A stretch of DNA of 22,418 bases, taken from IMG/VR virus record IMGVR_UViG_2700989234_000006; one strand, 5' to 3'. The position numbers are program-made. Position 1 is the stretch's first letter. Each line of letters begins with the position of its first letter. This document shows positions 18,001 through 22,418 of the stretch, one piece after another. The stretch comes from a virus (lineage: Duplodnaviria; Heunggongvirae; Uroviricota; Caudoviricetes).

Positions 18001-21000
18001 ACCATGAATTGCTCAGTGGTGTCAGGAATATGGTTAAGAAGCCATTCAGCCATTTGTTTTTCTTCATTAAGAATTGCTTCAATAATGGGTGCTGAAGCTG
18101 TATCACCCGCATTTTTGGCTGCTGCGAGAAGAGATGTGTAACACGCAATTTCAAATTGTTCGAACACATAGCCACTGATCGAACCTTTGACAATTTCATC
18201 AGATGGAAAAATTCCACCAATGGATTGCCCAAACGCGGCCATTTTACTCATAGAGTCTTTAATGACAGAGCGCGAAATATTATTACGATCAAGTATGCTT
18301 TCAAGCTGTGAAAGCTGGTTCTTAGTTTCGCTAATGTGCTGCTCAATTCTGGAACGTAACTCTGGATAGTTTTCTATCCGGCTGGCCATAGACTCAAGCA
18401 TTTTTTCAGCTTGAACCGCCCCGGAAATCCTGGAGACTAAACTCCCTGAGAAAGAGGTAAACAGGATGACTAAAAATACTCGTTTTTCCCCCGAAGTCCG
18501 TCAGCGGGCGATTCGTATGGTTCTGGAAAGTCAGGATGAATATGACTCACAGTGGGCGGCAATTTGTTCCATTGCCCCAAAGATTGGCTGTACGCCGGAG
18601 ACTCTGCGTGTCTGGGTTCGCCAGCATGAGCGGGATACCGGGGGCGGTGATGGTGGGCTCACCAGCGCTGAACGTCAGCGTCTGAAAGAGCTGGAACGTG
18701 AAAATCGTGAACTGCGCCGCAGTAACGATATCCTTCGCCAGGCTTCCGCTTATTTTGCGAAGGCGGAGTTCGACCGCCTCTGGAAAAAATGATGCCACTG
18801 CTGGATAAGCTGCGTGAGCAGTACGGGGTCGGACCGGTATGCAGCGAACTGCATATTGCCCCGTCAACGTATTACCATTGTCAGCAACAGCGACATCATC
18901 CGGATAAACGCAGTGCCCGTGCGCAGCACGACGACTGGCTGAAGAGAGAGATACAGCGCGTATACGATGAAAATCATCAGGTGTACGGTGTGCGTAAAGT
19001 CTGGCGTCAGTTGTTACGGGAAGGAATCAGGGTGGCCAGATGTACAGTGGCACGTCTCATGGCGGTTATGGGACTTGCCGGTGTTCTCCGGGGTAAAAAG
19101 GTCCGTACGACCATCAGCCGGAAAGCCGTTGCCGCAGGCGACCGCGTAAACCGTCAGTTCGTGGCAGAACGACCTGACCAGCTGTGGGTGGCTGATTTTA
19201 CTTACGTCAGCACATGGCAGGGCTTCGTCTATGTGGCGTTTATCATTGATGTGTTTGCCGGATACATCGTGGGGTGGCGGGTTTCATCGTCTATGGAAAC
19301 GACATTCGTGCTGGATGCGCTGGAGCAGGCGTTGTGGGCCCGTCGTCCGTCTGGCACCATCCATCACAGCGATAAAGGCTCTCAGTATGTGTCACTGGCC
19401 TATACGGAGCGACTAAAAGAAGCCGGATTACTGGCATCAACAGGGAGTACAGGCGACTCGTATGACAACGCGATGGCTGAGAGCATCAATGGTCTTTACA
19501 AAGCGGAGGTAATACACCGTAAGAGCTGGAAAAACCGTGCAGAAGTGGAACTGGCCACACTAACGTGGGTGGACTGGTATAACAATCGACGATTGCTGGG
19601 AAGGCTGGGCCATACTCCTCCGGCAGAAGCAGAAAAAGCTTATTATGCTTCCATCGGAAACGATGATCTGGCAGCCTGAGTTCACAGATAAAACACTCTC
19701 CAGGAAACCCGGGGCGGTTCAGCTTGTTTCTCCATCGCATGTGCATCACGAAGCCAGTCATGGTAATGTTCAATTCTATTCATAATCTGTTTATCCTAAA
19801 AGAAATTGAAGTCTATAGTTCAGGAGTTATCCTGAGCTTTTTTATTAACGTTATTAAATGCCAGATCTGTTAATTTGACATCAGTAGCTTTTTCCTCTTC
19901 CAGTGTTTCTTTCAGGAGTTTAGCCGCTTTTTTATATCCTAATTGCTCAGCGAGTGTTACCAAAGTGCCATAACTGGCAATTTCATAGTGCTCTACTTTT
20001 TGTGCTGCAGCAATCAATGCTGCATCACGTACTTCATTTTTATTAGTGCTTTCAATTACCTCATTCGCCTCTTCGATAAGTCCTTCCATTGCGGCACACT
20101 TAATTCTTTTCAATTTAAGACCATCTTCAGAATCAACAACCTGATCGATGCGTTCAATTTGACCATGTGTCTCATCAAGATGTGACTGAAAAGCAGCGGT
20201 TAATTTATCACTATATGCAGAGCGACTAAGTTTAGACAGTGCCTTTGTTAGTTGTTTCTCAGCACTGTATGTATCCGATAATAAGTGGATGAAGATATCT
20301 TCAACAGATTTAATTTGCATAATCACTCCAGAGTTTTCACTGCGAGCCCGTAGGCTCGCAGTTAGCTTCAGTTATTCACGAATGTAGGGGATGATAAATT
20401 AAGAGTCAGATTTACGGCCGCCACCATGGCTATTCTGACCACCTTTTTTCCCTGCTTCTGATGCTCTTTGCGGATCGTTTTTAAAATTACCGCCACTATG
20501 TTGGCCGCCTTTACGACCAGCGTCAGAAGCTTTTTGTCGATCTTCAGCGAAATTACCTGCACCGCCACGATGTTCGGTCATATCATTTCTCCTCTGATTT
20601 TCAAATTGTAAATAACATGTGCCTTGTCAGCACCCAATTAACTCTAGTAACAAATAAGAAAGTGTCAAATAACAGATTGGTATACGCATTTTGATGTGAG
20701 AAATAATAATTGTAAAAAATGTGCGCTCAGTGAGTATAATCTATTGATATCTTAGTGATTAACGGAAAGTTTAGGTTGTAACTCAAAAGATTAATGAACC
20801 TAAATTTACATTTCTATATCTTTTGATGTGTATGGCGTTGTTTTTCTCAATAAGAATACTCTGTAAAATAATTCAATCGTAAGATGGTGGTTGTTTATAT
20901 TTTTTTGAGATAGTTCCTAATAGAGCCCATCCCTTGAATAAATAATTGTTTTAAAATTTCGTCTAAAGAACTAATTACAAGAAAATTTATATAGTCCAAA

Positions 21001-22418
21001 GAATCATGATTGTACTTAACCATAAGATTTGAGCGTAAAAATTAATGCGCAGCACGTCGTATGCAAGAACGTGCTGCGGCTGGCTGGCGAACTTTCGATA
21101 GTGCGAGTATTGAATGATTTTCAGCCGTTGCCGATTTTACTATGTTTTCAGTAGAACACTTAGACAAAACTGAGGCACACAAATCTTTGCACTGGATTGC
21201 AAGGCTTTGTGCTTCTCTGGAGTGCGACATGTTTGATAACAAAAAATTAGCGCAAGAAGACAAAAATCACCTTGCGCTAATGCTCTGTCTCAGGTCACTA
21301 ATACTATCTAAGTAGTTGATTCATAGTGACTGGATATGTTGTGTTTTGTAGCATCATGTAGTCTATTTTTTAGACTAAATATATTGTAACACATTGATAT
21401 TAATGGTTTTTAATGTTTCACGTTCAGCTTTTTTATACTAAGTTGGCATTATAAAAAAGCATCGCTTATCAATTTGTTGCAACGAACAGGTCATTATCAG
21501 TCAAAATAAAATCATTATTTGATTTCAATTTTGTCCCACTCCCTGCCTCTGTCATCACGATACTGTGATGCCATGGTGTCCGACTTGTGCCCGAGAAGAT
21601 GTTGAGCAAACTTATCGCTTATCTGCTTCTCATAGAGTCTTGCAGACAAACTGCGCAACTCGTGAAAGGTAGGTGGATCCCCTTCGAAGGAAAGACCTGA
21701 TGCTTTTCGTGCGCGCATAAAATACCTTGATACTGTGCCGGATGAAAGCGGTTCACGACGAGTAGATGCAATTATGGTTTCTCCGCCAAGAATCTCTTTG
21801 CATTTATCAAGTGTTTCCTTCATTGATATCCCGAGAGCATCAACATGCAATGTTGTAGGGATGGCAATTTTTACGCCTGTTTTGCTTTGCTCGACATAAA
21901 GATATCCATCTACGATATCAGACCACTTCATTTCGCATAAATCACCAACTCGTTGCCCGGTAACAACAGCCAGTTCCATTGCAAGTCTGAGCCAACATGG
22001 TGATGATTCTGCTGTTTGATAAATTTTCAGGTATTCGTCAGCCGTAAGTCTTGATCTCCTTACCTCTGATTTTGCTGCGCGAGTGGCAGCGACCGGTTTT
22101 GTTGTTATATGGCCTTCAGCTATTGCCTCTCGGAATGCATCGCTCAGTGTTGATCTGATTAACTTGGCTGATGCCGCCTTGCCCTCGTCTATGTATCCAT
22201 TGAGCATTGCCGCAATTTCTTTTGTGGTGATGTCTTCAAGTGGAGCATCAGGCAGCCCCCTCCTTATTGCTTTAATTTTGCTCATGTAATTTATGAGTGT
22301 CTTCTGCTTGATGAGGTGTACTGGCAATAGCGGACACTACCATTTGTTCTTTTTTTAAGCAGCCATCTGATGATATTTTTCCCTGAAGGCTGCCGGGGAG
22401 ATATTCCCCAGACGAGAG

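What the first reader, a model, noticed from the sequence alone, without database searches (positions are those of the whole stretch)
20582..21041. Strongly AT-rich block upstream of yciG, likely the operon's promoter and regulatory region
By eye this segment is much more AT-rich than the flanking lambda-like DNA (long runs such as TTTATATTTTTTTGAGATAG and AAATAATTGTTTTAAAATTTCG). It has no convincing ORF. It lies directly upstream of the first gene of the cargo operon on the transcribed strand. A TACAAT hexamer (plus-strand 20604-20609) sits about 20 nt upstream of the yciG start as a possible -10. AT-rich, horizontally acquired upstream regions are typical targets of H-NS silencing and RpoS-dependent expression; that is established for the chromosomal yciGFE operon and inferred here.
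Basis: partly seen in the sequence, partly recalled or inferred. Interest (0 to 1): 0.4.

Follow-up and report, generated by a model that had tools for sequence, protein, structure and literature searches.

The report
Promoter region of prophage yciGFE-katN operon
The AT-rich block is the control region of a stress-protection operon carried as cargo by a lambda-like prophage: it holds a stationary-phase (RpoS-type) promoter conserved across enteric bacteria, plus about 370 bases of AT-rich DNA of the kind the silencer H-NS binds, which is ordinary and largely already described for the E. coli O157 copy.

Summary
Window 20582-21041 has 28.3% GC against 53.1% for the window, and it is the lowest-GC 460-nt stretch present. 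It holds no conserved ORF and lies directly upstream of yciG on the transcribed (minus) strand. Its distal end (21038/21039) is the junction between the cargo and the phage backbone.

The promoter is not the TACAAT 23 nt from the ATG. It is TTGACA (20668-20663), a 16-nt spacer, then C-TAGAGT (20647-20641) followed by TAA. This RpoS-type promoter occurs at the same place upstream of yciG in 27 of 42 loci from Escherichia, Salmonella, Klebsiella, Enterobacter, Kosakonia and others (0.24 expected by chance).

From the -35 hexamer to the ATG, the sequence is identical in every E. coli allele examined, including E. coli O157:H7. Published work on the O157 operon shows RpoS dependence (35-137-fold) and more than 450-fold derepression in an hns mutant.

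The remaining ~370 nt resembles no other genus. Between the window and O157 alleles it differs at 18% of positions, against 0.8% for the genes, while staying at 27-28% GC. No H-NS motif enrichment, curvature signal, OxyR site, RNA structure or RNA family was found.

Verdict: a known kind of element, of low interest.

The parts
20582..21041 (-). AT-rich non-coding block as reported: the regulatory region of the cargo operon, running from the yciG ATG to the cargo/backbone junction
   Evidence: GC 0.283, the lowest 460-nt stretch in the window. Homology to the cargo-free phages HK106 and HK97 resumes at 21039.
20663..20668 (-). -35 hexamer TTGACA of the yciG promoter
   Evidence: Found by the consensus scan. 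TTGAC is conserved at this position in 27 of 42 yciG loci from other genera, against 0.24 in shuffles. Invariant in all E. coli alleles.
20638..20647 (-). -10 region C-TAGAGT-TAA: C at -13, the -10 hexamer at 20646-20641, and an AT-rich discriminator. This is the RpoS-type signature.
   Evidence: The CTAnnnT pattern, followed by T(A/T)A, is conserved across genera with the same 16-nt spacing. That this is the RpoS signature is established knowledge (Becker & Hengge-Aronis 2001; Typas et al. 2007), cited from memory.
20582..20634 (-). Predicted 5' leader of about 53 nt. The start near G20634 is inferred, not mapped. It has a 5' hairpin at 20633-20619 and a Shine-Dalgarno sequence (AGAGGAG) at 20595-20589.
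   Evidence: Leader fold -11.3 kcal/mol, z -2.6. A 5'-proximal hairpin is predicted in 24 of 27 orthologous leaders. 0 differences in 87 nt among alleles.
20669..21038 (-). Distal AT-rich region upstream of the -35: the presumed H-NS binding and spreading substrate. It is variable and mosaic among alleles.
   Evidence: 18.2% differences from the O157 allele against 0.8% in the genes (Fisher p = 3e-43). GC stays at 0.27-0.28 in six alleles. No similarity to other genera. No significant RNA fold.
20737..20749 (-). Match to the IHF core consensus (TATCAATAGATTA), about -103 to -115 from the predicted start. A weak lead only.
   Evidence: One of only 4 matches in the window. The other 3 lie in the arms of attP, where lambda is known to have three IHF sites. 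The chance of at least one match in the block is about 0.10. It is kept in all 6 alleles but found in only 1 of 41 loci of other genera.
20605..20610 (-). Judged not to be the main promoter element.
   Evidence: No -35 partner at 16-18 nt. Not conserved in other genera.
21048..21078 (-). Hairpin on the backbone side of the junction, followed on the minus strand by CAUUAAUUUUU. It is a likely insulator against transcription from upstream.
   Evidence: 10-bp perfect arms and -18.4 kcal/mol. In O157-type prophages it follows directly after the stop codon of a SAM-methyltransferase gene. It matches only the terminal hairpin of Rfam CssrB: 29.7 bits against a gathering score of 76.
21241..21285 (-). 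Lambda sib / tI terminator hairpin downstream of int and attP, a second barrier upstream of the block
   Evidence: -27.7 kcal/mol, z -4.8, followed by U6. The homologous stretch of HK97 is annotated 'sib retroregulation site'.
20399..20581 (-). yciG, the first gene of the cargo operon
   Evidence: Pfam KGG repeat, E = 1e-16. The protein is identical in all E. coli alleles.
19820..20326 (-). yciF (DUF892, ferritin-like)
   Evidence: Pfam DUF892, E = 3e-54
18412..19721 (+). IS1203/IS629-type insertion sequence (1310 bp, GCT target duplication) that splits yciE and uncouples katN from the promoter
   Evidence: Gap in the alignment to intact loci. Terminal repeats and duplication read at the junctions.
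17055..17945 (-). katN (manganese catalase), the last gene of the operon
   Evidence: Pfam Mn_catalase, E = 5e-87
16943..16964 (-). Intrinsic terminator after katN, at the other end of the cargo
   Evidence: -16 kcal/mol, z -4.3, followed by UUUUAUUUU on the minus strand

Best explanation
The block is the autonomous control region of a phage 'moron', a yciG-yciF-yciE-katN stress operon inserted between tfa and the sib/attP region of a lambda-like phage.

The proximal 87 nt are the working core. They comprise a promoter (TTGACA, 16 nt, C-TAGAGT-TAA), a predicted ~53-nt leader with a 5' hairpin, and a Shine-Dalgarno sequence. The promoter is orthologous to the chromosomal yciG promoter of Enterobacteriaceae. 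Its -13 C and AT-rich discriminator favour RNA polymerase carrying RpoS, so the operon is transcribed from the repressed prophage in stationary phase or under stress.

The ~370 nt upstream, together with the AT-rich genes downstream, form a long stretch of 72% AT DNA. H-NS is expected to polymerise on it and keep the promoter silent until RpoS, possibly helped by anti-silencers such as McbR/YncC or by IHF, overcomes it.

Two hairpin terminators upstream (sib/tI and 21048-78) and one after katN insulate the unit from phage transcription in the lysogen.

Shown here: composition, junctions, promoter conservation, identity of the core with the O157 allele, and terminator folds. Taken from the literature on the O157 allele: RpoS dependence and H-NS repression. 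Inferred: the start site, H-NS occupancy of this particular sequence, and any role for the distal part.
For: - Composition and boundaries.
- Cargo junction at 21038/21039 relative to HK106 and HK97, where tfa is followed directly by the hairpin, sib, attP and int.
- The promoter TTGAC-N16-CTAnnnT lies 87-106 nt from the ATG in 27 of 42 loci from at least 8 genera, against 0.24 in shuffles.
- From the -35 to the ATG there are 0 differences in 87 nt among six E. coli alleles, although the next 373 nt differ by up to 19%.
- An AT-rich upstream region of 300-400 nt is a shared property of yciG loci in K-12, Salmonella and others, even without sequence similarity.
- Literature: Z1922-Z1924 of prophage CP-933X are 35-, 64- and 137-fold RpoS-dependent (PMC2907692). 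For katN (z1921), RpoS is essential, OxyR promotes transcription, and an hns deletion raises it more than 450-fold; z1921-z1924 are described as one operon (PMC5363993).
- Terminator folds.
- The block occurs in 382 of 5,426 complete E. coli genomes, next to the prophage yciG in every locus fetched, and is never on plasmids.
Against: - There is no transcription-start, ChIP or reporter data for this sequence.
- As a bare consensus match the promoter is not above chance: 3 promoter-like sites were found in 1.2 kb against 4.5 expected. Its weight comes from conservation only.
- The H-NS high-affinity 10-mer is not enriched: 21 matches in the window against 14.6 expected, with 2 weak ones in the block.
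- AA/TT helical phasing is not significant: corrected p = 0.2.
- The distal part is poorly conserved and could be functionally inert.
- The published H-NS effect in O157 was measured on an allele whose distal part differs by 18%, and it could be indirect, since hns mutants have raised RpoS.
- No OxyR consensus was found at up to 3 mismatches.
- The primary paper on the yciG promoter (Beraud et al. 2010) could not be read, so the mapped start and the YncC footprint could not be compared.
Confidence: 0.78

Rival explanations
1. Only the proximal ~90 nt are functional. The distal ~370 nt is inert AT-rich spacer that travelled with the cargo and drifts or recombines freely. Any H-NS silencing nucleates elsewhere, for example in the AT-rich yciF/yciE genes.
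For: The distal part differs by 18% between alleles, against 0.8% for the genes. It has no similarity to other genera. It shows no motif enrichment, phasing, repeats or structure. An O157:H7 strain carries an IS1203 that cuts it off just upstream of the -35. yciF itself is only 37% GC.
Against: A long AT-rich upstream stretch recurs at yciG loci in many genera without sequence similarity. GC is held at 0.27-0.28 in all alleles, with balanced W->S and S->W changes. From memory, Beraud et al. 2010 attribute the Salmonella versus K-12 differences in silencing to cis sequences upstream of the yciG promoter.
Confidence: 0.3
2. One reading: TACAAT (20610-20605) is the -10, giving a leader of about 16 nt.
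For: The hexamer matches the -10 consensus at 5 of 6 positions and is invariant among E. coli alleles. RpoS promoters can work without a good -35.
Against: There is no -35 at 16-18 nt, so the scan does not report it. The hexamer is absent at the equivalent position in K-12, Salmonella, Klebsiella, Enterobacter and others. The conserved promoter lies 31 nt upstream.
Confidence: 0.07
3. The operon is mainly driven by readthrough from upstream: int/pL transcripts in the phage gene order, or the methyltransferase or host genes in other contexts. On this view the block is a passive spacer.
For: The operon has the same orientation as int and as lambda's leftward early transcription. N-modified polymerase would ignore the terminators during lytic growth (inference from lambda biology).
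Against: Two hairpin terminators lie between int and the block. The same block and the same core promoter are kept in at least three different upstream contexts. Expression of the O157 copy is strongly RpoS-dependent in uninduced stationary-phase cells (PMC2907692).
Confidence: 0.08
4. The block hides a small gene or a regulatory RNA.
For: There is a 42-aa ORF at 20895-21023 on the minus strand and a weak plus-strand promoter-like site at 20844-20872.
Against: The ORF is lost in O157-type alleles and altered in others, and it has no Pfam match. No Rfam family matches within the block. Fold energies are no better than shuffles on either strand, z -0.09 and -0.41.
Confidence: 0.03

Closest known systems
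Upstream region of z1924-z1921 (yciGFE-katN) on cryptic prophage CP-933X of E. coli O157:H7
   Same: It has the same operon in the same prophage cargo position after tfa. The YciG, YciF and YciE proteins are identical. The sequence from the -35 to the ATG is 100% identical, and the same hairpin lies at the distal end. RpoS dependence and H-NS repression have been shown experimentally for it (PMC2907692, PMC5363993).
   Different: The 373 nt upstream of the -35 differ at 18% of positions, with three indels. The upstream neighbour is a SAM-methyltransferase gene rather than sib/attP/int. The prophage sits beside ompT rather than having lambda-type att. Its operon is intact, whereas here yciE is split by an IS.
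Chromosomal yciG promoter of Salmonella (yciGFEkatN) and E. coli K-12 (yciGFE), studied by Beraud et al. 2010 and Robbe-Saule et al. 2001
   Same: The gene order is the same. The promoter architecture, TTGAC-N16-CTAnnnT, lies at a similar distance from the ATG. The upstream region is 300-400 nt and AT-rich, and the leader has a hairpin. RpoS, H-NS and YncC control is reported for these loci (abstract recalled from memory; cited in PMC7705038 and PMC13343897).
   Different: Outside the -35/-10 elements and the ribosome-binding site there is no detectable sequence similarity. The chromosomal loci lie downstream of trpA, not in a prophage. Whether a YncC/McbR site exists here could not be tested.
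Phage morons of lambdoid phages (Juhala et al. 2000; Hendrix et al. 2000)
   Same: The unit is inserted between genes that are adjacent in related phages. It has its own promoter and terminator, and its composition differs from the flanks.
   Different: It is a four-gene operon with a long silencer-type upstream region, rather than a single gene with a minimal promoter.

Membership tests
yciG promoter (RpoS-dependent) of enterobacterial yciGFE(katN) operons | Lies immediately upstream of a yciG-first operon encoding a KGG-repeat protein, two DUF892 proteins and, in some species, a Mn catalase | tested here: met
   Pfam matches for all four products; gene order
yciG promoter (RpoS-dependent) of enterobacterial yciGFE(katN) operons | Conserved -35 TTGAC and -10 CTAnnnT (with C at -13), 16 nt apart, about 90-105 nt from the ATG | tested here: met
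   Window: TTGACA-N16-(C)TAGAGT at -87. The same pattern occurs in 27 of 42 loci against 0.24 in shuffles.
yciG promoter (RpoS-dependent) of enterobacterial yciGFE(katN) operons | Transcription depends on RpoS | not testable with these tools
   Shown for the O157 allele, which has an identical core (PMC2907692, PMC5363993). Not measured for this sequence.
yciG promoter (RpoS-dependent) of enterobacterial yciGFE(katN) operons | Mapped transcription start and a YncC/McbR footprint upstream | not testable with these tools
   The primary paper is not held, and no usable binding motif was available.
H-NS-silenced, horizontally acquired AT-rich DNA | AT content far above the surroundings over hundreds of bases | tested here: met
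   GC 0.283 over 460 nt against 0.531 for the window; the lowest stretch in the window
H-NS-silenced, horizontally acquired AT-rich DNA | Horizontal origin | tested here: met
   The cargo is absent from HK97 and HK106 at the same junction. The closest KatN relatives outside E. coli are 86-87% identical, in Phytobacter, Kosakonia and Yokenella.
H-NS-silenced, horizontally acquired AT-rich DNA | High-affinity nucleation motif (tCGATAAATT) or intrinsic curvature | tested here: not met
   The motif is not enriched: 21 matches against 14.6 +/- 3.8, with two 2-mismatch matches in the block. AA/TT periodicity is not significant. Neither feature is obligatory for H-NS binding.
H-NS-silenced, horizontally acquired AT-rich DNA | H-NS occupancy, or derepression in an hns mutant | not testable with these tools
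   More than 450-fold derepression of katN in an EHEC hns mutant (PMC5363993). This was measured on the O157 allele, and no binding assay was seen in the passages read.
Phage moron | Inserted between genes that are adjacent in related phages, with its own promoter and terminator and a deviant composition | tested here: met
Rfam RF02799 CssrB (Shigella sRNA) | Score at or above the gathering threshold over the whole model | tested here: not met
   29.7 bits against 76. Only model positions 141-180, the terminal hairpin, match, at 21039-21078, which lies essentially outside the block, overlapping only its last 3 nt.
OxyR-activated promoter | OxyR tetranucleotide-repeat operator (ATAG-N7-CTAT-N7-ATAG-N7-CTAT) | tested here: not met
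   No match at up to 3 mismatches anywhere in the window. The OxyR effect reported for EHEC katN may be indirect.

The most novel reading that the evidence does not exclude
The ~370 nt upstream of the -35 may be a separately evolving, exchangeable 'silencing cassette'. It recombines among prophages about 20 times more visibly than the operon it controls, yet it is held at 27-28% GC. Its alleles (window type, O157 type, mosaics), and IS insertions that cut it off, would set different levels of H-NS silencing of a prophage-borne catalase operon in different E. coli lineages.
Probability: 0.15. Interest if true: 0.45.

Novelty: already known. Interest (0 to 1): 0.2.

Why it matters
It matters little beyond annotation. 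The work fixes the likely promoter of the prophage yciGFE-katN operon, whose product KatN has been reported as a virulence-associated catalase in EHEC. It corrects the proposed -10 and shows that published RpoS results for the O157 copy should carry over to this allele, because the core is identical. The H-NS result transfers less securely, since the distal AT-rich part differs.

One mildly useful point is the contrast between an invariant core and a highly variable, compositionally constant upstream region. Together with natural IS insertions next to the -35, this offers ready-made material for testing how much sequence-independent AT-rich DNA contributes to H-NS silencing.

Tried and rejected
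- Similarity of the block to phage and plasmid collections: no match.
- Similarity to yciG upstream regions of 40 other species using sensitive blastn: no match outside E. coli.
- H-NS 10-mer consensus: not enriched.
- OxyR operator: no match.
- AA/TT helical periodicity as a proxy for curvature: not significant after correcting for the periods tried.
- Repeats: only short two-copy matches. One 11-nt inverted repeat (20767-20777 / 20797-20807) is weakened in the O157 allele.
- RNA structure of the whole block on either strand: no better than shuffles.
- Rfam: nothing in the block. The partial CssrB hit is only the junction hairpin.
- The 42-aa ORF: not conserved and no family match.
- IHF consensus: one match, kept among alleles, but with about 10% chance expectation and absent at the equivalent place in other genera. 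It is kept only as a lead.
- Reading Beraud et al. 2010 and Kroeger et al. 2012 for mapped start sites: neither is held.
- A literature search for a mapped yciG start: nothing usable.
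Full report
**Context.** The window is the right half of a lambda-like late region. It runs through tail genes ending in J, lom, stf and tfa, whose stop is at 16935.

A cargo follows on the minus strand:
- katN, 17055-17945
- yciE, split by an IS
- yciF, 19820-20326
- yciG, 20399-20581

Pfam confirms Mn_catalase, DUF892 (twice) and KGG repeats. After the reported block come a hairpin (21048-21078), the lambda sib/tI terminator (about 21241-21285), and an intact attP (core GCTTTTTTATACTAA at 21427-21441, with both arms). 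Next is int (21515-22327, minus strand), which is cut at about 22313 by the end of an IS600.

**Observation.** The block 20582-21041 has GC 0.283, against 0.531 for the window. Of 21,959 overlapping 460-nt windows only 9 are as low, and all of them overlap the block. The edges are sharp in 40-nt bins. The two quoted runs are present. The only internal ORF of at least 30 aa (42 aa, 20895-21023) is not kept in other alleles and has no family match. TACAAT lies at 20610-20605 on the minus strand, 23 nt from the ATG. The operon here is interrupted by a 1310-bp IS1203/IS629-type element (18412-19721, GCT duplication) inside yciE.

**Where the block belongs.** In phages HK106 and HK97, tfa is followed after about 125 nt by the hairpin/sib region, attP and int. 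Their homology with the window resumes at 21039. The cargo therefore occupies about 16,940-21,038, and the block's distal end is the cargo/backbone junction.

A strong minus-strand terminator follows katN: 16943-16964, -16 kcal/mol, z -4.3, then UUUUAUUUU. The unit thus has the anatomy of a phage moron, with deviant composition, its own terminator and, as shown below, its own promoter.

The block occurs in 382 of 5,426 complete E. coli genomes. It is always chromosomal, and it lay beside this prophage yciG in every locus fetched. It is absent from the phage and plasmid collections searched. It is found in at least three contexts:
- lambda-att prophages next to ybhB/bio
- another mobile context
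- prophages beside ompT in O157:H7 and others, where a SAM-methyltransferase gene ends exactly at the hairpin

**The promoter.** I aligned the 160 nt upstream of yciG from the window, E. coli K-12, Salmonella, Phytobacter, Kosakonia, Yokenella, Klebsiella, Enterobacter and Leclercia. Two conserved islands appear: TTGAC(A/T/G) and, 16 nt downstream, CTAnnnT followed by T(A/T)A. A regular expression for TTGAC-N16-CTAnnnT hits 27 of 42 loci at -87 to -106 from the ATG, against 0.24 loci in shuffles.

In the window the elements are TTGACA (20668-20663) and C-TAGAGT (20647-20641), then TAA. This is also the best hit of the generic scan, at 10 of 12 positions. A C at -13 next to the -10 and an AT-rich discriminator are the textbook marks of RpoS-preferred promoters (Becker & Hengge-Aronis 2001; Typas et al. 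2007; from memory).

The start is inferred at about G20634. That gives a 53-nt leader with a 5' hairpin (20633-20619) and AGAGGAG at 20595-20589. A 5'-proximal hairpin is predicted in 24 of 27 orthologous leaders.

**Experimental support from the literature.**
- In E. coli O157:H7 EDL933, Z1922, Z1923 and Z1924 of prophage CP-933X are 35-, 64- and 137-fold RpoS-dependent in stationary phase (PMC2907692).
- For katN (z1921), RpoS is essential, OxyR promotes transcription, and deleting hns raises it more than 450-fold. The authors describe z1921-z1924 as one operon homologous to Salmonella yciGFEkatN (PMC5363993).
- The O157 allele (L003) is identical to the window from the -35 to the ATG, 0 differences in 87 nt, and encodes identical YciG, YciF and YciE. 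RpoS dependence therefore transfers with good confidence.
- The H-NS result transfers less securely, because the distal part differs.
- For the chromosomal loci, control by RpoS, H-NS and YncC/McbR is attributed to Beraud et al. 2010 by later papers. I could not read that paper itself.

**The distal ~370 nt.** This part has no detectable similarity to the yciG upstream regions of other genera. Those regions are nevertheless also AT-rich for 300-400 nt.

Among E. coli alleles this part is strikingly variable. Against the O157 allele there are 68 differences in 373 columns (18.2%, including three indels). The genes show 19 differences in 2,279 (0.8%), and the core shows 0 in 87 (Fisher p = 3e-43). 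Differences are patchy, with the worst stretch (58-70% identity) at about 20860-20980. Intermediate alleles (L004, L087) are mosaics with private patches, which points to recombination among diverged alleles rather than simple drift.

GC stays at 0.27-0.28 in all six alleles, and W->S changes (27) balance S->W changes (25).

No specific signal was found in this part:
- the H-NS 10-mer is not enriched
- there is no helical phasing of AA/TT
- there is no OxyR operator
- there are no meaningful repeats
- RNA folding is no better than shuffles
- there is no Rfam family

One exact IHF-core match (20737-20749) is kept in all alleles. It is the only match in the window other than the three in the arms of attP, where lambda is known to have three IHF sites. 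Its chance expectation in such AT-rich DNA is about 10%, and it is not conserved in other genera.

**Mechanism proposed.** In a lysogen the unit is insulated by terminators on both sides. It is silenced by H-NS spreading over the 72%-AT upstream region and the AT-rich genes. It is transcribed from the yciG promoter by RpoS-polymerase in stationary phase or under stress.

During lytic growth, N-modified leftward transcription could additionally read through sib into the operon, which has the same orientation. This is an inference from lambda biology. In this particular window only yciG, yciF and a truncated yciE remain connected to the promoter.

**Rivals.**
- The distal part may be an inert spacer (about 0.3). 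This is compatible with the promoter assignment.
- TACAAT may be the promoter (about 0.07).
- The operon may be driven by readthrough (about 0.08).
- The block may hide a small gene or RNA (about 0.03).

**Novelty and score.** The element is a near-identical allele of a published prophage operon. Its promoter is the orthologue of a studied chromosomal promoter, and the reading 'AT-rich, H-NS-silenced, RpoS-dependent' is textbook. What this work adds is the position of the promoter and the contrast between an invariant core and a variable upstream region. Interest is 0.2.

Noticed in passing
window 18412-19721: A 1310-bp IS1203/IS629-type insertion sequence with a GCT target duplication splits yciE in antisense orientation. 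The catalase gene katN is therefore cut off from the yciG promoter in this copy.
   Followed up: partly
window 22313-22418 and int 21515-22327: The end of an IS600-family element truncates the integrase gene. The open frame is 270 aa, against about 356 aa for lambda Int. Homology to HK106 int stops at 22312, so the prophage is probably defective.
   Followed up: partly
window 21300-21500: attP is intact, with the core at 21427-21441, both arms, and three IHF consensus sites at 21309-21321, 21387-21399 and 21467-21479. It lies next to int, so the DNA is in vegetative phage order rather than split as in an integrated prophage. Viral contig L092 shares this junction at 99.9% identity.
   Followed up: partly
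L089 (E. coli O157:H7 strain F8492) 1194-2501, equivalent to window 20673-20679: An IS1203 is inserted 5-11 nt upstream of the -35 hexamer of the yciG promoter. It separates the core promoter from the whole distal AT-rich region, which amounts to a natural deletion experiment.
   Followed up: partly
window 21039-21078: The hairpin at the cargo/backbone junction matches only the terminal stem-loop of the Shigella sRNA family CssrB (29.7 bits, below threshold). This region is present in more than 3,000 E. coli genomes. In O157-type prophages it directly follows the stop codon of a SAM-methyltransferase gene.
   Followed up: partly
window 20619-20633 and the orthologous leaders in L006-L036: A short cGAC(A/G) motif at about +8 to +16, and a 5'-proximal hairpin, recur in the predicted yciG leaders of many genera. 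In Klebsiella and Enterobacter the hairpin is a GATACG...CGTATC inverted repeat. These could be an mRNA-stabilising stem or a protein-binding site.
   Followed up: partly
window 21041-21154 (+): RefSeq annotates a 37-aa 'capsid protein' here in several genomes (for example L001 6742-6855). It has no Pfam match, lies in the non-coding sib-proximal region, and looks like an annotation artefact.
   Followed up: partly
window 16943-16964: A GC-rich hairpin sits between the convergent tfa and katN genes and folds well on both strands (-16.0 and -15.3 kcal/mol). Only the minus strand has a U-tract, so it serves mainly as the katN terminator.
   Followed up: yes
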